This document shows positions 1,991 through 61,654 of a stretch of 64,000 nucleotides of DNA, one piece after another (within the stretch, counting starts at the first letter, position 1; each line of letters starts with the position of its first letter). This DNA comes from Lama glama. Taxonomy: Eukaryota. A program made the translations under genes and the position numbers. Under the pieces are notes generated by a model. It ran no database searches. It saw only the letters and a list, made by a program, of their open reading frames with translations, and was not told the DNA's origin. Where the stretch lies: NCBI GenBank assembly GCA_028534125.1, contig CM052816.1:16804001-16868000 (forward strand). The letters run 5' to 3'.

Positions 1991-4379
1991 TTGCTAAAAA
2001 AAAAGAAAACTTTTGTATACATGTTTTTACACTTTTTTGTACCAGTATTAAGAAAGATGCATAAAGCTTTCTTTGGCAAGTGGAAGCTGGCGAAGGATGG
2101 AGATTGTTGGCTTTCCTGTGTCAAAATTTTTTTTGACATTCTGCAAAATTTAAGTTTTGCTTTTAAAACAACAAAAAAGAAAATCCACGGGTTTTTTTGG
2201 TTTGTGTGTTTATCTACCGTATCTACAAATGTAACAGTCCTAAGGTCTCTGCCACTTACACAGACCAATAATGATTCAAAAACACAAAGAGGACACTGAA
2301 TTAGAAAAGAATTAGAGATAAAGACATAAAAATCCATTAAATTTATTCCGCAATGAGACTTAAAAAAAATAAAAAAACCCGAAACTGGCCTGTTTTGAAA
2401 CACAAATAAAGCTACTAATCCATGGGGGGGGGCAGGGGCTGCTTTTCTACATAATCTAAAAATCTCAATAGTTACTTGTCAGCATAGGTTTGGTGAGGAA
2501 GATGTTCACCTATCAAACCCTTATCAACAAAACTCTGTATCAACAGGCTCCTCCTAAGTTTTCTTATTTCATATTTCATCTTAAGGTAGCACATGGCTTT
2601 TGGTATTTTTTAAGGGTTCATTAATGGATCAGGACTACATTTTGAAAGATTTCTGGATCAAAAAGTATTTACAAAGAGGATATTAATGGAATCTAAAATT
2701 GTGAAATGTTTTTAAACACTTCAAAAACTCATTCATTCAACCCTCAATTACTCATCCTTAACAGGGGGCGCCCTGCTATGCCTTACTCAAAATCAAGCAT
2801 GCCTGAAAACATCTTAAACTTAAGTGAATGAAAATCTGCCCAATCACAAGCCAGCTGCTTGCAAACTCCACCCTTGAGTACAGGAAGAGCACTTTTGATT
2901 GGAAGACGGTTGTGTTTACCACCGTGTGTGGTGCAAATTGGAAAGGCCCACATGCCTAGGGTTCAAAGGAAATCTCTTAAATGAAAAAGGAAAACAATGG
3001 CCAGTTCTGATCCTATACTAGTTACAGTCATTAAAAGAACCTCATCATCGCAATAGCAATTCTTGAGCAATTCTGCAAGCTGGTAAAAAAATTTTTAAAG
3101 CTCTGAGTTTTGTTGTGGCTGTTTTCTCATCTATGTCCCTTGATTATATGTACAAGACAAGCATAAGTGTATTCTTAAAACCCAGAACTGCCTTTGCTTC
3201 TAGATGCATACAGCTCCATGCAAGACCTCAACACAGTTAGAACGTACACTTAGTCTTCCAAGAATCACTGCAACTTTTTACTTGGTTTGAGAAAACAATT
3301 CCATGGGCCCAGTGGTAAAATTATTCAGTACTTAGCTTAATAGGTGTCCAGCAACTCACTGAGCTTCAGAAACCTCGGCCCTTAGGGAGCCCAGCAAACA
3401 ACAAAGTGAATGAGTAGCTATTTCAGGTGCAGAGCTCATTAGCGATTCATCTGATGCAGGAAACAACTAGAATGTAAAATTCCGACTGAAAAGCTAGGAC
3501 TACGCCTTCGGTCAAAATATGCATATAATGGTGGATCTTAAGAATGTTCTGCATTCAAGGGGCTAGAGTAAATTACTGGATCTCAGAAGGAGAACTCTCC
3601 CCCAAGCCAATCTAAAAGCAATCTTCCAAAGAAAGCGCAAAAGAATTTAAATTCAAGTCCCCTTTCTTAATCATCAACCTCACTCCATTATATTCCTGGT
3701 ATCTTTTTCACAAATTCCCCCCATTGAAGCCTCATAAATGTCCAAGCAGCCTTTTCTTATACAGCATAAAGATCAAAGCAAAGTAAATGAACTCTAGTAG
3801 CAGAAGCATAAGCCAGCCACAAGCTAAACAACCCATAAAGCTTACATATCAGAATAATAAGCCTAACACCAATGATCAAAAAGTAGACAAGTGAGTGTCA
3901 GAAACCTGCATTTTTAATATCAAATCTTACAAAATACGTTCCCATTTACAGCGAATACAGTATCTGCAGAAGCAAATTCATCAAAAAAAAAAAAAGTTCC
4001 TTCTGCCTACGGATCTATCACATTCCAAAAGAATCCCATTTTTCATAGCCTTATCTCAACAGAGAAACTAGGGCCGCTATCAGAATGAGGAACTTAGGAG
4101 GCTTGCCGAAGCTCAAAGGCAATATTTTGCCGCCACATTAACAAAAACAACACATCATGGTCCTGGGTGCTAGTTAAGTTCTATTACTGAACAACTTTAA
4201 TCACAAAACACACCAATGCAAGTATTCAAAAGCGGCCAAGCCTCAACACAAAGTTTCAAAACAAAACCTCTTCGAAGGCTTGGGGGAGTAGCCCAGGTAG
4301 AAGCAAAAAAGCACCACCCAACAGCCCCATTTAGCTGCTAAGATAGATCTCAAACTTATCAAAAACAGCCACAACGGCA

Positions 4380-5617
<1,238 letters not shown>

Positions 5618-8261
5618 TCAGTTTATCCACCTCGGACACCAAAGACTTTTACTGGGGTGGGGGGCTGAGGCACAAGGTACCTAGAGAGTTGATGTTTTGA
5701 GCTAAGAAGTTAGCACTCCAATACCCTATTGATTTCCTAGCCTGAATATATGCACTACACTTCCTGTCATCCTTTAGGAAACTTTCTTCCCATTGGTCCA
5801 TGGGACACAATAGTTTTCTTCTCACTGGCCCATAACATGATACCATACCATTCTATACTGCCAGTACTTCATAGGTTCCTTTCCAACTGGCCAATGTGTT
5901 ACATCCATTGTATGCAATAATGTCACTCCATTGGCTGAAGGCCAACGTGCTTCCAACATCTCGGTATTTTGACATAACCCCATGGAGCTTCTTCCCCTTC
6001 CAAGTCAGCCAATGTTATTAAGTAAGTCCAGGTGTTTCTCAATTCAACTTTTAGGGGAATTGGAAAGAGACCAGAAGAGATTCTTTTCTCTGGTTCAGTA
6101 GTATCTCATCTTACCATGGAAGTAATGGGGCTTGGTGCAAAGAAAACCCCACCACTCCTATCTGAATTCACAAGCATGGGAGATTGATACTCCTATTAGA
6201 AAGGAGCTGCAAAGAAGGAGAGATACTGAATAATTTTTTGCCAAGGTTTTTATTCACACTAGGCCATGGGAAACCTGTCATTAACGTTGGTCACGTTAGA
6301 GACAAGCACAAGTTCCATGGTCTTCTGGATGCAGAGTACATGAGGAAGCAGATAAAAACCAGGAAAAGGTCTAATATTAATCCACTGCTATCCTAAAATT
6401 GCCCATTTCTTTCACCTATCTGACCTACAGATAGTTAAGAGTAGTAGTTAGTTCTTTCTTCAAGACCTATAAGCCTACCCAGAAATCTATCCATAACCTT
6501 CTTTACTGTTGATCTACTTGTCTTGTAGCAAAGGTTGGGGATGAGAGTCCATTGTTGACTTTAGTAAAAGTACAACATCTAGTCATTCTAGAACTAACTC
6601 TGTGGAGCACCAAGGAAATATTTCCCTGGATTTTTTCTCTCCCTATTCCTTAGAACTTCCATTTTCCATAGCCGACGTGAGGCCTGACTCAGTGTTTTTT
6701 TGGGCACAAGGTCTGTAAGTTGTAGTTGGTAGGAGGGGAACAAGGGTAAATCCATACAGAACCTAGCTGCCTTGCAGCTTTTCTACCAAAATTCACTGCT
6801 GGGATTTTCTCCCATATGGGTTCTAATTACTGCCCCAGCAACCGAAGCTGGCTTCTCACAGCACCAGAGACAGAAATGTGCCTAAGCTCAAGGATGGGAA
6901 GGCAAACATGAGAAATTCATTCAACAAATATGGCAGGTACTTTTCATATGCTGGTAAAGTTTCAAAGTGTTGGTGACACAACAGTGATTAAAACAAAACC
7001 TTTGCCCTCATGGAGTTTATATTCTTTCCTATGCTTCAGGAATGGAAAATGAAATCACACTTGCCTTCACAGAAAATAAACAGAAAAACCCAACAAAAAA
7101 ATTGAACAGAAAGGAAAAAAAGGGGGGAGGGAGTAACTTTAGATGCTCAGATTTTACCCCTGCTCAAACAGGTGAAGTGAAACAGCAGTTTCAAAAAACG
7201 AACCTCTAATTCTGAGCTGCTTTAACCACGTGCTGTTGGCCCACCCCCTCAAAGCCCTGTCTTTGTTTCCAAGGGAGGCTGACAACTCCCACTCCTTTTA
7301 GAGTATAGTTTCATCCCTTTAAAGGTTCCTGCTCCAGGTAGTCAAGCCAATCCTGTCCTCTTGCACACTTCATTGGTATTCAACAATGAGTGCCACCAAT
7401 TTGAAGCAGGAAACTGGGACGGAGGCTGAGCAACTTGACTCTTCTTGCCGCCTGACAAGTCAGCACAACTGGTAAAGAAAGGCTATGGCTTAGGGACAGA
7501 GGCTCCTGCCTCGCTCTCTAAGCAACTACACTTCACCCACACACATTGGGAGAATGCTAACATAGGGAGAAGAAAGGGTGGAATAGAAAGGTCTAAAGAG
7601 AGAGTGAGCCACACAGCTTCTTTCAGCAGACGAACATTCCAAATTGAAGCATTAGGAAAAATACCACCTTTTAGAGTAAAAGAAAAGCTCTGCTGCTAGG
7701 ATAACTTTCCAAAATCAGTTATTTTCAGAATGGAGAAACTGCTCAAGTCTTTGGAATCTGAATTCTGACGACTGTATCTCCCATCTCTCCAGGACACAAC
7801 ATGTGAAAACTCTTAGAAGAAATTCCTGGTCAAGTCTCCTATCCTGCCTTCTCCCCAAAGCCTACAACCCAATCTAGACAAGTTTCTTAGTGCACCATCA
7901 AGCATTTCTCAGGGAGCAAGAATGTATTAAAACTTGACTTCAGCCTGCTGGAAGTGAGAGTGACAGGAGGGAAGAAGAGATGCCTATAAGTACCAAGGAA
8001 ACCAGAGACCAAATCAGACTGCCAGAAATAACCAAGGCCTTAACAGATGCCTGGGCCATAGGATGTAACTGCTGTGGCCACAAAAGCCCAGGGACCAAAT
8101 ACTACTCTCAAAGGGCAAAGGCCCAGCCACATTATAGAGGAAGAGGCTGGAAGAGTTAGGTGGCCTTCTCCCCGCTTCCTCCTTGCCTTTCTTTGTGGAG
8201 AAAGGAAGAAGACACTGTAGTACACAAGGCTGCTTGGGAAAATGGATTATTCTAATAAAAC

Positions 8262-12131: not shown

Positions 12132-13210
<1,079 letters not shown>

Positions 13211-14507: not shown

Positions 14508-14870
<363 letters not shown>

Positions 14871-18560: not shown

Positions 18561-19903
18561 TACGCCCCCCTCCCAGCAGGATGAGGTAATGGGATTGTGA
18601 TTATGACATCATAGGCGGTTCAGTTGCTTGCGTGGGGGGAGGGGGGCCAGTACGGTGGTTACAGCTGGACCACTTTTCTTTAAGAGGGAGGAAACAGGCC
18701 GATGGAGGGAAAGATGATGATGGCACTGTATTTCCTCTTAAGGAAGAGAAAACCACCTTTTATTAAATCTCCACTACTACCACCACCTCCCACCTCAGCC
18801 AAAGTTTAAGTCCTTTTTGAAGAGCCTGAATATAGCAGTTAATAGGTGAAGAAGTTGTGGAACAGCTAGATTGATTTCTGGCTCTTATGTAAATTTGCTT
18901 CTGAGCTATCAAGGTTTTAGGGAGAGGGGGAAAAGATGGGAACAGGAGAGATTTTAAACAATGCCTTCGTGTTATGATCTCTTTGTAGGAGAGTTTTAGA
19001 TTTCTTTTTAAATTGATTGGAAAGTAGAAGTAATGCAAGTCATCTTCACTATTACATTCAGAAACAAGTCCCCCGAAAGACATGTTTTCCCTATTTTGTG
19101 CCCTACTCAAGTCTGGGACAGATAAGTAGTTGTGATCAGCTAGAAAGTACAGCCAGTGGTGGGATCTTCAACACAGAGCCAGGGAAAGGAGGGGGCAGGA
19201 GCCACCAAATCTGCAAACTGAAAAAGAAGAGTGAGGTACTTATCAAGAAAATGGGAGTGGAAGGAAGATGCACTTCACATTTGCTTGTCTTGTACATTTC
19301 CCCTTGGCAAAAGAAGGGGCAGTGACCATGCAGGACAGGAGACATGGATTCCAATAATTGCTGTTGTGGAACACTTATGTGCCAGGCACTGTGCTGCATA
19401 CTTTAAATATGTATTCTCATTTTTGCCTCCAATCATCAAGTGAGACAAAATCTCCTTATCTGACATATGAAACAGCAGGAGAGGTTAAGTGACTGCTCAT
19501 ATGGTGGGCAAAGGTAATATTAAAAAGCAGTTTGAGGCTCTAAAGCCCTTGTTCTTCACCACTAGGTGATCTTCCTTTTTATTTAGTAATAAAATACCAT
19601 GCTTATTAAAGTTAAGTGATTGAGTATAAGAAGTTAAGTTAGCATTGGTACATTTGCAAAACAAAGACATTGAGACACTTAAAACCACCAAACCTTGCAA
19701 GTCAGGTTTCAGTTCTCATTTCAAAGGAAGATTACACCCATTTTCATCAAGTATAAAATAGCCCCTAGTGAAGCCCAACTTTTCCTCCATTACTAATTAA
19801 ATATCCTAATGTTTTAGTTCAAAGTTTTTTACTCATGTCCTGCCATTTTTTCCTGCTGTCGCATTTTTCTTCTTTTGTTCTTGGGCTACTACCTTGAACC
19901 CCA

Positions 19904-20072
19904 TCAAAATTGTAACCTCCTGAGCCAGACCTCATCTCTGACCCTGCTCCAGTGGATTCCAGCAGAGGCTCCCTTCTGTTTCTCATCCAGATTCTCTGAG
20001 GGTTCTATGGCCTGAGACAAGTCCTCCAAAGGGGTGGGATCCATTGGCTTTAAGAGACTCTCCATTTCCTGC
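19904..20072 (-). CDS. SLBP2: SLBP2-like coding exon 5 (3' boundary uncertain; alternative donor after 19943)
   Basis: cctccctag acceptor in the phase required by exon 4; QEMESLLKPMDPTPLEDLSQAIEPSENLDEKQKGASAGIHWSRVRDEVWLRRLQF*. Confidence 0.6.
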
Positions 20073-20214
20073 CTAGGGAGGCAACAGAGTCAGAAGAACA
20101 TGCACCTCATTCAAACTCTCCCTTTTCAGCCAGTGAAAGCTAAACTTCTGCAAAGTGGGGAGAGGTAGGGCTCAGTCCACCACTCAAGGAAGTAACCAGG
20201 AATAATGCACGTAC

Positions 20215-20367
20215 CCCTCAGCCCCCCTGCCCTGCAGAGGCTGGCTAGGGGGGTCCCATGAATGTAGAGCTCTTCTCCATTGCCTGATCTGGGCATCCCA
20301 GGAGCGACGACTGTACCTCCTGTTCTTGTTTGGTGTTTGAGGGTGAAATCCTGGCTGTCGCTGTGCC
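20215..20367 (-). CDS. SLBP2: SLBP2-like coding exon 4, second half of the SLBP RNA-binding domain
   Basis: ttgccag acceptor, gtacgt donor; (K)[51 protein letters not shown] aligns to SLBP [38 protein letters not shown]. Confidence 0.93.
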
Positions 20368-20757
20368 CTGGCAATGACAAATGTGTCAGACTAAGGTCAA
20401 GGTGATGGAGCACAGCTCACTGCTTATCACAGTGAATCAGGAGACTCATTAGGGTCTCTGAGAATAAGATAGGATCAATTCTCTCAATCCAAAGAGATCT
20501 TTAAACACCAAACTTCCCAACTCCCTAATATTCTTTCTTCTGAGAAGGGTAAATTAGATATTCTAATTCTCTCAGAAATCAAGATAGATAGAAAAGACAG
20601 TATTTGACATGTCTTTAAAATAAATTCTACCTTCTTATACATTAGTTTGTATGTATTCATATAAGCTTACCTGTAATTAGGCAAGTATATCATAATTAGC
20701 CAAGTCAGCTGGAGGTATGAGGTGAAAATGGATGGAAGTAAAAAAAACTTCATTAGC

Positions 20758-21592
20758 TTTTCCACCTGCTCCCCCAAACCCCTCCCCTCCCCCAGAGCCT
20801 CTCCCAGCTCCTGCTAATCTAGCGCCTCAGCCATCATCAGCCGCCATCAAGATCATCTACTGGGATCTCATCAGCCATGATGAGATGTTCCCCTGACATC
20901 TACAAGATCCAGGAGATTGAAGACAGGCTGTGTCTGGAGATGGAGGGGAAGTTGGCCAGTAAGACAGGGGGTAACAATGATGACTCGCTTATTGGTGAAA
21001 ATGCCTCCACTGAATGCCCTGAGGGCAAAGGCACGAAACCACAGTCATCACTGGTGTCGATATTGTCATGAACCATAACTTGCAGGAAACCAGCTTCACA
21101 AAAGAAACCTACAAGAAGTATATCAAAGGCTACATGAAGTCAATCAAAGCGAAGCTTGACGAACAAAGGCCAAAAGGAGTAAAAACCTTTTATAATAGGC
21201 ACTGCAGAACAAATCAAGCACATCCTTGCTAATTTCAAAAACTATCAGTTGTTTATTGGTGAAAACATGAATCCAGATGGCATGGTTGCTCTGCTAGACC
21301 ACTGTGAGGATGGCGTGACCCCACACATGATTTTCTTTAAGGATGGTTTAGAAATGGAAAAATGTTAACAAATTTGGCTGTTACTTTGGATCTATCACCT
21401 GTCATCATAACTGGCTGGCCCCTGCTTTTCATCCACGCAGCACCAGGTCTTAGACAAATGGGACTGATGTCATCTTGAGCTCTTCATTTATTTTGACATT
21501 GATTTATTTGGAGCAGAGGCATTGTTTTTGAGAAAAAAAAAGACATGTCATGTAGGTCTTCTAAAAATAAAATGCATTTAAACTAAAAAAAG
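20758..21592 (+). pseudogene. TPT1: TPT1 (TCTP) processed pseudogene, inside the SLBP2-like intron
   Basis: Intronless TPT1-like sequence (..[20 protein letters not shown] ending 21368); start codon reads AAG at 20849-20851; frameshift near 20891; AATAAA 21566-21571; A tail; perfect 18-bp TSD aaaaaaaacttcattagc at 20740-20757 and 21593-21610. Confidence 0.95.
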
Positions 21593-21844
21593 AAAAAAAA
21601 CTTCATTAGCAAATATGGGTAGAGCTTTAAAAAGTCTTATGGACCAAATATTATTTGTTCCACTTGAAAAAAATTTTAGAAACTTATTTTTGGGGCTAGA
21701 TTGCAGGATAATTCATTTTAGTAATGCTGCAAAGTGAGATCACTTTGTGAGAGCACTCAGATTCTAGTATCTTTCCATCATCTGACATTGAATAAAAGCC
21801 ACTTGGTTGACACTTTTGTTGTGACTGTCCACAATTACACTCAC

Positions 21845-21949
21845 TTGGGAACCTGCTGCAGAAAGCACTGGTAACCAGGCGTGCACTTGCCATAATCTAT
21901 CTGCTTTTGCCGCCGTTGTAGGACAATTTCATCTGTCTCTACCTCCCAC
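21845..21949 (-). CDS. SLBP2: SLBP2-like coding exon 3, first half of the SLBP RNA-binding domain
   Basis: cttcttcacag acceptor, gtgagt donor; WEVETDEIVLQRRQKQIDYGKCTPGYQCFLQQVP(K) aligns to SLBP ETDE.[26 protein letters not shown]. Confidence 0.93.
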
Positions 21950-22055
21950 CTGTGAAGAAGTAGATAGTGGCCCCATAAAGTGTGATTATAGTCATCAAAG
22001 CAGAAACCAATTCATCCCATATTCCCTTAATCCCCAGCCTGATTTTCAAACTCAC

Positions 22056-22136
22056 CTGGCATGGCAGGGCTCTGTGCTGACTCCCACACTCACCATCTCT
22101 ATACTATAGGATAAAGACTCCTCACACACCTCCATT
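22056..22136 (-). CDS. SLBP2: SLBP2-like coding exon 2
   Basis: acttccccag acceptor, gtgagt donor; 81 nt, phase 2-2, open: MEVCEESLSYSIEMVSVGVSTEPCHA(R). Confidence 0.75.
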
Positions 22137-22484
22137 CTGGGGAAGTAGATTCTACAGATAAAAAGGGTATTAGGATAAAACCCTGCTAATTACATTGTAC
22201 CTCTCAGCCACTACTACTACTACTAAAATCCTGACACCAGATAAATGTTGTATTTGTGACTTACTGTCTCTCAAAGATAAAGGTTGCATTTCTGATTTGT
22301 TTTTCAAACTGTGCTCTGCAAGCCATCTTCATGGGTAGCACCTGGAGGCCTTGTTAATTCCTGGGGCCCACTCTAGACTGAATCATCAGTTTGGGGGCCT
22401 GTATTATAAAGAGCTTCTGAGGTTATTTTAAACACTTTTTATTATGGAAAATTTCAGATATACAAAGAGAATAGCATAATCCTC

Positions 22485-22648
22485 TGCTGCTCAAAGTATG
22501 GTCCAAGGACCAGCTGCATCAGCATCAGCTGGGAGCTTTTTAGAAGTGCAGGCTCTTGGGCCCCAACCCACATCGACTGAATCAGAATTTACATTCTAAC
22601 AAGATTCCCCAGGTGATTAGTATGCTGGTTAAACTTTGAGAGCATTGA
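22485..22648. mobile_element. MER5A-like hAT DNA transposon remnant
   Basis: ctcaaagtatggtcc..cagcatcagctgggag..actgaatcagaa..ccccaggtgat..tttgagagcattg; related copies at ~35455-35632, ~41800-41960, ~47455-47625. Confidence 0.72.
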
Positions 22649-22994
22649 TAAAATGGACCAGTTACACATCACCCAATACTCACGGCCAATCTTGTTTCAT
22701 GTATACCCACCACTACTCCTACAGGATTTTTTAAAAGTAAATCCCCAACATTAAGAATAAATTCTTAATATCACCTAGTCAATGTTCACATTTCCATAAA
22801 CAACCACAGTTTGAGATCCTTTGGACTGTGGTAAGAATTAAGCGAAGAGATGATTCAACCCTCCTATTTTCCTTGAAAAGGAATTTCCTTTACCCCACAT
22901 AACCTAGAATCTCAGATATTGCGCGCTTAAAAGGGACACCGACCAAGGAAAGCTCTTGGAAGGGGCCAATGCCGATCATCAGAAATGCACACAC

Positions 22995-23038
22995 CTGTCT
23001 CGTTGCAACATCTGCCATCCCGGCGGCAAATGTTCCAT
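22995..23038 (-). CDS. SLBP2: SLBP2-like candidate first coding exon
   Basis: cttctgctgtag|ATGGAACATTTG...CGAGACAG|gtgtgt; 44 nt MEHLPPGWQMLQRD(R), phase-compatible with exon 2; a possible upstream non-coding exon ends at 23281 (TAG|gtaagc). Confidence 0.55.
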
Positions 23039-45419: not shown

Positions 45420-45953
45420 GTAAGATTACTCTGAGGGCTTAGCAGGGGAGGGGCTGGAGAGAACACTTTATTTAGAAGACTCTGGACAAAGGGTCCTGTG
45501 AATGCTAGAACCAGGACAGACATACATTTGGAGCACATCACAGCTGTCAGTCCTCATTCCTGTTCTAATTCTGTATGCCTTGAGTAGTTTACTTTCCCTC
45601 TCCCTCCTAGATCAATCTCCCTCTTTTCTATAGGAGCCAAGAGCTCCTACCTGGAAATAAAAACATTAATCCAAGGGCTGAGTAGCACTTTACAAACATT
45701 TAATACTTACAGACATTCCTCACAGTGATCCCTACACTTCAGGTGGTTTAGTTCAGGAGCATTTACTGAGCACCTACTACATACCAAGCTCTATGTCAGA
45801 CCCTGAGGATAGATACAGGTAGATTTCTGCTCTGAAAGTACTTATAGTCTATCCTTCCTAACCCAAATATCCCGAGATGGTATTCTAGTAATTTCTAAGT
45901 GTTGGCACTGTTCACAGACCCTTAAGGAAATACTTATTAAAATTCTTCTACAG

Positions 45954-46087
45954 GGAGCCATAAACTTGTACAGTCAAGAAGAACTGTATAAGTTCTTTCT
46001 GAAGAAGCCCATTGTCCCTTTGGATAACCAGAAAAGAATAATCATCGTGTTCCACTGTGAATTCTCCTCAGAGAGGGGTCCCCGAAT
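45954..46087 (+). CDS. CDC25C: CDC25C catalytic exon ([11 protein letters not shown]5R)
   Basis: [44 protein letters not shown](M); 134 nt. Confidence 0.97.
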
Positions 46088-46449
46088 GTGAGTGTCTATA
46101 TGGGGTAGGGTGAATGGTAGAAATAGAACTTACAACCAGGGAATCTTCCCAAATCAGTTCAGACAGAGACTGAATGAATGAATGCTTTCCACTGTGGTTT
46201 GAATGTTACCAAGGTGGAAGAAAGGGGTTTCTACAATTCAAAAGTTTGGAGCAGTGAAGTAAAAAGGATTGGTAATTGGGTACCAATGGAAGAAAGCTTC
46301 TTAGACCTTGTTTTGCAAGAATAGTGAGATCTGGATCTCCTTTTTAGCATTAGCAATAGTCTGTTCTTCCTCCCCCTCCCCAGTGAATGGCTCATGGAAT
46401 CCTGACCTTGCTTCTTTCCACCACACCCATCTCTGGGTTTTCTCTAAAG

Positions 46450-60245: not shown

Positions 60246-60861
60246 AATGAATGACTCCTAGACTTTCTGCCTAGAAAAACCGTTACCCCTTGATAGGAAT
60301 CCTAAGTCCTAGGATGCAGGGCCTTTCTCCAGGGCTGAGCTATAACCAACCTTGATTTCCCTGAGTAAGTGAAAGAAGCAACAAACACTCCCCACCCCAA
60401 CCCCAACTAGTTTCCACTGTAAGGTGTCTTTAAGTGCCTTTTAGTAGAAGACTCAGAGTTGTTGCTGACCATCATTTAGCACCCCCTGTGCACATTCTCA
60501 GCTCTGGTTATGATGCTAGCCCTGCCCATGGCATAGCTCTGCTCAGGCCTTCTTGCCTGTGCCTGACAGAGTCATCAGGCTCAGCTTCAAACAACTTTCT
60601 CCTTCCCCCTCCCAGGAGGCTAAGCAGCCTCTCTCACCTCTTCTTGAGCCTGATCTGTTCTGTCCAGATTGTGACAGCTGCAGACTCCTCCCTCCTGCTG
60701 GACTTCTTTCTCCCCACTTCTTCCTAAAGGCCTTTGTGCTACCCTAAGCCTTTCCTGCTAAAGAGTTCATTCAGAACCCCTCTCCCTGCCTTATGACTTG
60801 GTACTCCCAGACAGCTACTCTGACCTTATGTGAGCCTCATCTGGTCCCTCTCCCTCCACAG

Positions 60862-61152
60862 GGGACCCTCTCCCCACAGAAGGCCGGCTCATGAACAGCT
60901 GCATCCAGGCCAGGAGGAAGTGCAAGGCCGATCCCATCTGCAATGCTACTTACCACTACCTGAATTCCTGTGCCTCTAGTACAAGCATCCCATCACCTTC
61001 TGAAGAGGAGCCTTCAATATCTGAAGATTGTATGGAGGCAGCACAGCAACTTAGGAATAGCTCTCTAATGAGGTGTACCTGCCACCGGCGCATGAAGAAC
61101 CAAGCCTCCTGCCTGGACATCTACTGGACTCTTCACCCTGCCCGCAGCATTG
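60862..61152 (+). CDS. GFRA3: GFRA3 exon 2 (first Cys-rich GDNF-receptor domain); gene continues beyond the window
   Basis: DPLPTEGRLMNSCIQARRKCKADPICNATYHYLNSC...CTCHRRMKNQASCLDIYWTLHPARSI(G); ccacag acceptor, gtgagg donor. Confidence 0.96.
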
Positions 61153-61654
61153 GTGAGGCCCCATCCTAGAGTGGGCTAAGATGGCTGTTGGGGGTTATAT
61201 TTAAATTCCGTTGGATCTGGGCCACATAGATTTTTTTTTATAGGGATGATAATGAAACTCTGCATTTGACATCAGTAAGAAGTAGAAGGAGGAATTGACA
61301 GTATCCTTTTGGGCCCCCACAGCAGTGCCCTCCCTTCTTGCTACTTTCCCCTTTCTTACCTGGCAATGTGTAGCTGCCTTTTGGCAGAGCTCTGAACCAG
61401 GCTGAGGCCCAACCTGGTGAGCTCTTGAAACAGAAGAGTATAGAGAGCAAGCAAATGGAGGGAAATGGTCTTAACCCATAAACAGGCTGCAAATACAACA
61501 TAATCCATAAGTTCAGAGAAACTGGGAGGCAATGTCCTGGTCCAGCCTTTAATGGAGAGGGTACTCATTAACCAGACAGGAGATGATAAGAGAGAGAAGG
61601 CACTGGAAGAGCCAAAAAGAGGAGTTTCCTCTGACTCTAGAGATCCCTTTCTGG

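What the first reader, a model, noticed from the sequence alone, without database searches (positions are those of the whole stretch)
19904..23038. Hidden spliced SLBP paralogue (SLBP2-like histone-mRNA stem-loop binding protein) between FAM53C and CDC25C
Seen: five minus-strand exons (23038-22995, 22136-22056, 21949-21845, 20367-20215, 20072-19904) with canonical AG/GT sites and consistent phase-2 junctions splice into a 183-aa [136 protein letters not shown]... The ORF track misses it. The core is a complete, stop-free SLBP RNA-binding domain ([27 protein letters not shown]). Known: an oocyte-specific SLBP2 stores and represses maternal histone mRNA in Xenopus, and I recall an oocyte-preferential homologue reported in cattle and apparently degraded in human and mouse, so the family is not new but is little studied in mammals. 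Inference: an apparently intact copy in this lineage.
Basis: partly seen in the sequence, partly recalled or inferred. Interest (0 to 1): 0.9.

Follow-up and report, generated by a model that had tools for sequence, protein, structure and literature searches.

The report
Known camelid SLBP2 gene, intact

Summary
The five minus-strand exons exist as described: AG/GT at every junction, phase 2 throughout, 552 nt, 183 codons plus TGA. Exons 3 and 4 separately match the two halves of Pfam SLBP_RNA_bind above its cut-off. The gene is not hidden.

The same genome holds a separate canonical SLBP. In a tree the window protein sits in a mammalian clade (100/99) inside sauropsid SLBP2s, apart from a canonical SLBP clade (97/86). 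Literature passages report mammalian SLBP2 in cow, rat, dog, horse and pig, and a pseudogene in human, mouse and rabbit.

It misses a conserved sixth exon (19217-19140) and an alternative exon-2 acceptor. Camelids carry a 1-nt deletion in exon 6 and lack GT at the ancestral exon-5 donor. Verdict: real, intact, already known; low interest.

The parts
22995..23038 (-). Coding exon 1. The ATG is at 23038-23036 and an in-frame TAG lies immediately upstream. The donor is GT.
   Evidence: The N-terminal residues are shared with whale, bat, lynx and other models.
22056..22151 (-). Coding exon 2, with two in-frame tandem acceptors. The one at 22151 is the alpaca RefSeq model's and adds 5 residues.
   Evidence: Both forms occur among other species' models.
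21845..21949 (-). Coding exon 3: the first half of the SLBP RNA-binding domain.
   Evidence: Pfam PF15247 positions 1-30 of 70, 39.6 bits. The phase-2 intron falls at the same codon as in the genome's canonical SLBP.
20215..20367 (-). Coding exon 4: the second half of the RNA-binding domain. It holds the TPNK threonine (codon 20336-20334) and the arginine that aligns with human Arg181 (codon 20306-20304).
   Evidence: Pfam positions 33-70 of 70, 55.5 bits. Alignment to 4l8r_C. Codon mapping.
19904..20072 (-). Coding exon 5 with three possible ends. (b) GT donor after 19943: the Bactrian camel model P0067. (c) Non-GT (GC) donor after 19964: the alpaca RefSeq model P0001.
   Evidence: Logan-derived protein P0068 (168 aa, on a 1147-nt contig) carries the read-through end.
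19140..19217 (-). It is the conserved C-terminal exon. In camelids a 1-nt deletion in a C run shortens it; the ancestral continuation is still readable in another frame.
18759..18764 (-). AATAAA downstream of exon 6: a candidate poly(A) signal for the six-exon form. A second AATAAA at 19583-19578 could serve the read-through form.
   Evidence: pattern only; usage not shown.

Best explanation
[quoted passage not shown] It is a small spliced gene on the minus strand between FAM53C and a CDC25-family gene.

Shown here: the protein is a short, probably disordered N-terminus, a complete three-helix SLBP RNA-binding domain, and a disordered, fast-evolving tail. The domain keeps the TPNK threonine and the arginine that makes the only base-specific contact with the histone stem-loop.

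[quoted passage not shown] The canonical SLBP, encoded elsewhere in this genome, then takes over.
For: - Exon structure and open frame.
- Both halves of Pfam SLBP_RNA_bind score above the cut-off.
- The window reproduces the 194-aa RefSeq alpaca protein named SLBP2-like exactly.
- Sequence match to human SLBP in PDB 4l8r/4qoz, E 7.3e-30.
- Predicted model: block-mean pLDDT 76-94 over residues 51-120, with helices 53-68, 71-79 and 102-117.
- Foldseek's top 7 of 14 matches are all SLBP-RNA complexes.
- T93 and R103 align with human Thr171 and Arg181. Their roles come from passages of PMC10388802.
- The own-genome search gave 7 matches: 5 in this locus and 2 in one other locus. The RBD of that other locus is 99% identical to primate SLBP.
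- Tree of 50 rows and 78 columns: canonical clade 97/86, mammalian SLBP2 clade with the window 100/99, nested among turtle, gharial, kiwi and lizard rows, mostly named SLBP2 or SLBP2-like (91/91).
- RBD identity to Bactrian camel is 78/78, to whale 75/78 and to platypus 65/78. The flanks fall to 21-32% in platypus.
- A short motif just N-terminal of the RBD is shared with X. laevis SLBP2.
- Literature passages on the function and on the mammalian distribution.
Against:
- Tissue specificity in camelids is therefore not shown.
- The C-terminal exon carries a lineage-specific frameshift, and the ancestral exon-5 donor position reads GC, not GT. These could be early signs of decay.
- No dN/dS could be computed, since no coding DNA of other species was available.
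- The RBD-only tree does not resolve amphibian, fish and amniote SLBP2s into one clade.
Confidence: 0.87

Rival explanations
1. The gene is a camelid SLBP2 in early decay, a unitary pseudogene in the making as in human, mouse and rabbit. It may still be transcribed but would no longer be needed.
For: - A 1-nt deletion in exon 6 removes the conserved C-terminal tail.
- The ancestral donor of exon 5 is not GT.
- The three database models disagree on the 3' end.
- Loss of this gene has happened in other mammals, according to passages.
Against: - All five core exons are open with canonical sites.
- The RBD is 78/78 identical between the window and Camelus bactrianus, and 5 of 196 residues differ overall, all outside the RBD.
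- The exon-6 lesion is shared by the alpaca-type and camel proteins, so the rest of the frame has stayed intact since it arose.
- A 168-aa product lies on a 1147-nt Logan contig, whereas exons 2-5 span 2.2 kb in the window. This implies a spliced RNA in a camel-type sample (inference).
Confidence: 0.1
2. It is a copy or retrocopy of canonical SLBP, not SLBP2.
For: The RBD is 60% identical to the genome's canonical SLBP RBD, and the RBD intron falls at the same codon and phase.
Against: - It has four to five introns, so it is not a retrocopy.
- A starred branch (97/86) separates every canonical SLBP from it.
- Its RBD is 69% identical to X. laevis SLBP2 (54/78; 73% by BLASTP), against 60% to canonical SLBP.
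- Only the RBD aligns with primate SLBP.
Confidence: 0.02
3. It is a chance open frame assembled from fortuitous splice sites.
For: None beyond the general fact that AG and GT are frequent.
Against: Pfam E-values of 5.3e-10 and 5.8e-15 for two separate exons, and 63 of 70 candidate proteins matching exon 4 at E <= 0.001.
Confidence: 0.01

Closest known systems
Mammalian SLBP2 / 'SLBP-like' (bovine; Thelie et al. 2012, Mol Reprod Dev 79:380, seen only as a reference and as cited in passages of PMC7226043 and PMC6239174)
   Same: - Same family and same mammalian clade.
- RBD 93% identical to the reindeer model and 96% to the whale model.
- Same short N-terminus and same start residues.
   Different: - Camelid-specific 1-nt deletion in the last exon.
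- No GT at the ancestral exon-5 donor.
- Expression in camelid oocytes is not shown here.
Xenopus laevis oocyte-specific SLBP2 (xSLBP2; P0108)
   Same: - RBD 69% identical (54/78; 73% by BLASTP).
- Shares a short motif just N-terminal of the RBD.
- Lies on the non-canonical side of the tree.
- Its function, histone mRNA storage and repression, is taken as the model (passage).
   Different: - The frog protein is 283 aa with a roughly 100-residue longer N-terminus.
- The tails are almost unalignable: 9 of 56 identical.
- Passages report that bovine SLBP2 and xSLBP2 differ in expression and localisation.
Canonical SLBP (human SLBP RBD in PDB 4l8r/4qoz; own-genome locus G000:C2:807880-808911)
   Same: - Same RBD fold.
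- Same TPNK threonine and Arg181-equivalent arginine.
- Same intron position and phase inside the RBD.
   Different: - 60% RBD identity.
- Nothing outside the RBD aligns.
- The window protein has about 46 residues before the RBD; the primate SLBP isoform compared has about 130.
- That canonical SLBP carries its translation-activation and cell-cycle degradation motifs in that N-terminal part is recalled, not tested.
Zebrafish slbp2 (PMC6239174)
   Same: It is an oocyte-specific maternal factor needed for histone storage (abstract and passages). Named fish slbp2 proteins (gar, Fundulus) lie outside the canonical clade.
   Different: The fish slbp2 rows do not join the tetrapod SLBP2 rows in one supported clade in the RBD-only tree.

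Membership tests
SLBP family (Pfam PF15247 SLBP_RNA_bind) | Match to the RNA-binding-domain profile above the gathering score | tested here: met
   Exon 3 scores 39.6 bits (positions 1-30 of 70) and exon 4 scores 55.5 bits (positions 33-70 of 70). The cut-off is 27.
SLBP family (Pfam PF15247 SLBP_RNA_bind) | The arginine that makes the base-specific contact with G7 of the stem-loop (human Arg181), and the threonine of the TPNK motif (human Thr171) | tested here: met
   Both are conserved in the alignment to 4l8r_C. They are R103 and T93 of P0001. Their roles come from passages of PMC10388802. The numbering is mapped by counting from TPNK.
SLBP family (Pfam PF15247 SLBP_RNA_bind) | Three-helix RBD fold | tested here: met
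   AlphaFold2 model with helices 53-68, 71-79 and 102-117, and block-mean pLDDT 76-94 over residues 51-120. Foldseek finds 4qoz_C at E 2.9e-6 with TM(target) 0.83, and 4l8r_C with TM(target) 0.85.
SLBP family (Pfam PF15247 SLBP_RNA_bind) | Binds the histone mRNA 3' stem-loop | not testable with these tools
   This needs an EMSA or a similar assay.
SLBP2 (oocyte-type paralogue) | Groups with named SLBP2 proteins and apart from canonical SLBP | tested here: met
   Careful tree of 50 rows and 78 columns. The branch separating the canonical clade has support 97/86 and appears in 99% of 200 bootstrap trees. The window lies in the mammalian clade (100/99), nested among sauropsid rows mostly named SLBP2 (91/91). 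The quick tree of 135 rows agrees. The SLBP2 side is not resolved as a single clade.
SLBP2 (oocyte-type paralogue) | Coexists with a separate canonical SLBP gene in the same genome | tested here: met
   A second locus lies on contig C2. Its RBD is 99% identical to primate SLBP.
SLBP2 (oocyte-type paralogue) | Conserved neighbourhood beside FAM53C | tested here: inconclusive
   FAM53 exons lie about 4-7 kb downstream on the same strand. A figure legend of PMC7255616 lists Fam53c and Slbp2 among the genes drawn at teleost loci. The figure was not seen, and no other genome was compared.
SLBP2 (oocyte-type paralogue) | Oocyte-preferential expression | tested here: inconclusive
SLBP2 (oocyte-type paralogue) | No similarity to canonical SLBP outside the RBD | tested here: met
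   BLASTP against the 275-aa gelada SLBP isoform aligns only residues 39-157. Beyond the RBD the identity is weak and gapped.

The most novel reading that the evidence does not exclude
Before the camel and llama lineages split, camelids lost the conserved C-terminal tail of SLBP2. The causes were a 1-nt deletion in exon 6 and loss of the GT at the ancestral exon-5 donor. The RNA-binding domain nevertheless stayed invariant. Camelids would then be a natural 'tail-less' SLBP2, showing that the conserved tail is dispensable for whatever keeps the gene under selection, or that the gene's role has narrowed to RNA binding alone.
Probability: 0.5. Interest if true: 0.3.

Novelty: already known. Interest (0 to 1): 0.12.

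Why it matters
SLBP2 is one of the oocyte genes that some mammals kept and others lost (human, mouse and rabbit). That makes it a case study in how control of maternal histone mRNA differs between species, and a reminder that the mouse is not a model for this step in livestock. Finding an intact copy in a camelid adds one more lineage to a pattern already visible in Ensembl and NCBI annotation, and it opens no new question. The camelid-specific remodelling of the 3' end is a minor curiosity. It could be used to ask what the conserved C-terminal tail does.

Tried and rejected
This was the unnumbered call. Exon references and the stored protein P0001 were used instead.

No junction reads, strand or expression level were obtained.

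They are not counted as evidence. The stretch also holds a TPT1 pseudogene and repeats that could contribute words.

4. CDC25C as a neighbour:
   - An own-genome search with PF06617 gave 5 matches, none in the window.
   - An own-genome search with PF00581 gave 14 matches, none in the window.
   - A Pfam scan of 150 of the 181 plus-strand open frames of 40-74 aa between 23 and 58 kb gave 0 families.
   - Only a recalled active-site motif search hit, once, at 46053.

5. The search of earlier findings returned nothing for this genome.

6. A first attempt to join the two canonical-SLBP exons in a script was off by one base and failed. It was corrected.

7. A Pfam call on the TPT1 pseudogene frames was rejected because of stop codons. 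A script translation replaced it.

8. dN/dS was not computable, because no coding DNA of other species is reachable with these tools.

9. Paper searches for SLBP2 with 'camel' and with 'alpaca' found 0 papers each.

10. PMC12803260 mentions SLBP2 only in its reference list.
Full report
**Observation**

- Exons 2-5 are each preceded by AG, and exons 1-4 are each followed by GT.
- The running length is in phase 2 after each of exons 1-4.
- The join is 552 nt, which gives 183 codons and a TGA at 19906-19904.
- A TAG lies in frame directly before the ATG at 23038, so the frame cannot start further upstream in that exon.

Chance is excluded by Pfam.
- Exon 3 alone (34 aa) matches positions 1-30 of the 70-position SLBP_RNA_bind profile at 39.6 bits.
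- Exon 4 alone (50 aa) matches positions 33-70 at 55.5 bits.
- Both are above the 27-bit cut-off.
- Exons 2 and 5 match no family.

**It is an annotated gene**

A search of the large protein collection with exon 4 found 63 proteins at E <= 0.001 among 70 candidates.
- The best hit, P0001, is 100% identical. [quoted passage not shown]
- Its 90% cluster also holds models from Camelus ferus, C. dromedarius and C. bactrianus, plus a Logan-derived product.
- A six-exon model built from the window equals P0001 exactly. The exons are 23038-22995, 22151-22056, 21949-21845, 20367-20215, 20072-19964 and 19217-19140.
- The window therefore comes from a camelid of the alpaca/vicuña type.
- The gene is already in public annotation, so "hidden" applies only to a naive ORF track. 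No stop-to-stop frame of 110 aa or more covers the locus.

1. Exon 2 has two in-frame acceptors 15 nt apart. The one at 22151 is used by the alpaca model. Both forms occur among other species' models.

2. There is a sixth coding exon at 19217-19140, behind a good polypyrimidine tract and AG. It encodes a tail that is conserved from marsupials to whales.

3. Exon 5 has three candidate ends.
- Read-through to the TGA. It has the same exon structure as the 183-aa dromedary model P0065, which differs from it at 6 of 183 residues. It is also the end carried by the Logan product P0068.
   - A GT donor after 19943, used by the Bactrian camel model P0067.
   - A donor after 19964, where the intron begins GC in a poor context, used by P0001.
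   - In other mammals the junction follows a glutamine at the position of the 19964 site. That they have a GT there is my inference; their DNA was not seen.

4. Exon 6 carries a 1-nt deletion in a C run relative to the whale protein. The ancestral continuation is still readable in another frame at 82.6% identity. The deleted form is shared by the alpaca and camel proteins.

AATAAA motifs at 19583 and 18764 could serve the short and long forms. Their usage is not shown.

**Which family**

- Sequence: P0001 matches the human SLBP RBD in PDB 4l8r/4qoz at E 7.3e-30, and Drosophila SLBP at about 1e-21.
- Structure: an AlphaFold2 model built from a 20-sequence alignment is confident only over the RBD. 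Block-mean pLDDT is 76-94 over residues 51-120, with helices 53-68, 71-79 and 102-117. The rest is low-confidence.
- Fold: Foldseek's first 7 of 14 matches are all SLBP-RNA complexes.
- Key residues: the threonine of TPNK (T93) and the second arginine of the YSRRSWD stretch (R103) align with human Thr171 and Arg181. [quoted passage not shown]

**SLBP or SLBP2**

Two loci in the genome. A six-frame search of the window's own genome with P0001 gave 7 matches: 5 exons of this locus and 2 exons of one other locus on contig C2. The RBD of that second locus is 99% identical to primate "histone RNA hairpin-binding protein" (P0189, P0187) and 60% identical to the window's RBD. Both genes have an intron at the same codon and phase inside the RBD, as expected of an old duplication rather than a retrocopy.

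Sequence set for the trees.
- I collected 263 sequences. These were the listed hits, cluster members, and the own canonical RBD.
- 243 of them had a near-complete RBD.
- 20 representatives were named through cluster look-ups.

Trees.
- A quick tree of 135 rows put the window in a starred set of 14 rows.
- For a careful tree I hand-picked 41 labelled rows and 10 unnamed ones. One of these, P0204, was dropped for an incomplete RBD, leaving 50 rows and 78 columns.
- All 11 rows named canonical SLBP, including the own C2 locus, form one clade (97/86), which also holds one unnamed bird row. The labelled SLBP2 rows lie on the other side of that branch in 99% of 200 bootstrap trees.
- The window lies in a mammalian clade (100/99), nested among turtle, gharial, kiwi and lizard rows, mostly named SLBP2 or SLBP2-like (91/91).
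- X. laevis SLBP2 lies on the same side but in an unresolved polytomy. The fish and chimaera SLBP2s branch nearer to the canonical clade. With 78 columns, monophyly of all SLBP2s is therefore not shown.

Outside the RBD, the window protein shares a short motif with X. laevis SLBP2. It aligns with primate SLBP only weakly and with gaps.

**Constraint**

No coding DNA of other species could be fetched, so dN/dS was not computed. At the protein level:

| Species | RBD | N-terminus | C-terminus |
|---|---|---|---|
| Camelus bactrianus | 78/78 | not listed | not listed |
| Whale | 75/78 | not listed | not listed |
| Rat | 73/78 | not listed | not listed |
| Platypus | 65/78 | 12/37 | 15/69 |

- The window's reader-type and GT-donor models differ from the camel models at 5-6 residues, all outside the RBD.
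- The two colobine monkey models are the most divergent mammals in the RBD, at 79-83%.

**Context**

- Pfam FAM53 matches at 12132-12992 (199.7 bits) and 14508-14870 on the minus strand place FAM53C just downstream.
- A CDC25-type active-site motif lies in a plus-strand exon at 46053.
- A GDNF/GAS1 domain lies at 60834-61166 on the plus strand.
- This fits the human order GFRA3-CDC25C-FAM53C-KDM3B as I recall it. Which CDC25 paralogue it is was not tested, and three Pfam-based looks found nothing in the window.

**Literature**

| Paper | What was seen | What it says | Call |
|---|---|---|---|
[quoted passage not shown] The first mammalian orthologue was characterised in cow. A protein-coding gene exists in most Laurasiatheria, and a pseudogene in human, mouse and rabbit. 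| 5 |
[quoted passage not shown] Maternal slbp2 is required for histone storage in zebrafish. | 37 |
| PMC10998374 | passages | SLBP2 rises late in bovine oocyte growth. | 6 |

The 2012 primary paper (Thelie et al.) was seen only as a reference. Searches for SLBP2 with "camel" or "alpaca" found no paper.

**Expression**

- Indirect hint: the Logan-derived product P0068 (168 aa, camel-type residues) lies on a 1147-nt contig, while exons 2-5 span 2.2 kb in the window. That contig must therefore be a spliced transcript. This is an inference.

**Verdict**

The gene is already annotated and its family already described, so novelty and interest are low. The only camelid-specific points are the remodelled 3' end and the truncated tail. 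Their effect on the protein cannot be decided without RNA data.

Noticed in passing
window 20870-21400, plus strand (inside SLBP2 intron 3, antisense): A processed pseudogene of TPT1/TCTP. There is a Pfam TCTP hit at 20823-21068 (24.6 bits). The reading frame hops between frames and has several stops, and A-rich sequence follows at about 21530-21600.
   Followed up: partly
window 12132-12992 and 14508-14870, minus strand: FAM53 family exons (199.7 and 25 bits). This is FAM53C-like, on the same strand as SLBP2 and just downstream of it.
   Followed up: partly
window 4001-6000; 4892-5617 minus strand: A GC-rich block (61.8% GC) with many long open frames on both strands and a sub-threshold DUF7030 match (23.8 bits; cut-off 27). 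It is possibly the CpG-island first exon of the next gene; KDM3B by recalled synteny, not tested.
   Followed up: no
window 46053, plus strand (open frame 45813-46088): A CDC25-type active-site motif at the end of an exon that is followed by GT. Pfam did not report the exon at E <= 0.001.
   Followed up: partly
window 60834-61166, plus strand: A GDNF/GAS1 domain exon (35.9 bits), consistent with a GFRA-family receptor gene. GFRA3 by recalled synteny.
   Followed up: no
window 22136-22153, minus strand: Tandem in-frame acceptors 15 nt apart at exon 2 of SLBP2. Annotated models of different mammals use one or the other.
   Followed up: partly
alignment A1, rows P0048 and P0047: Old World monkey SLBP2-family models have changes at otherwise near-invariant RBD positions: the arginine pair before QKQI and the arginine pair of the YSRRSWD stretch. 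This fits relaxed constraint in primates.
   Followed up: no
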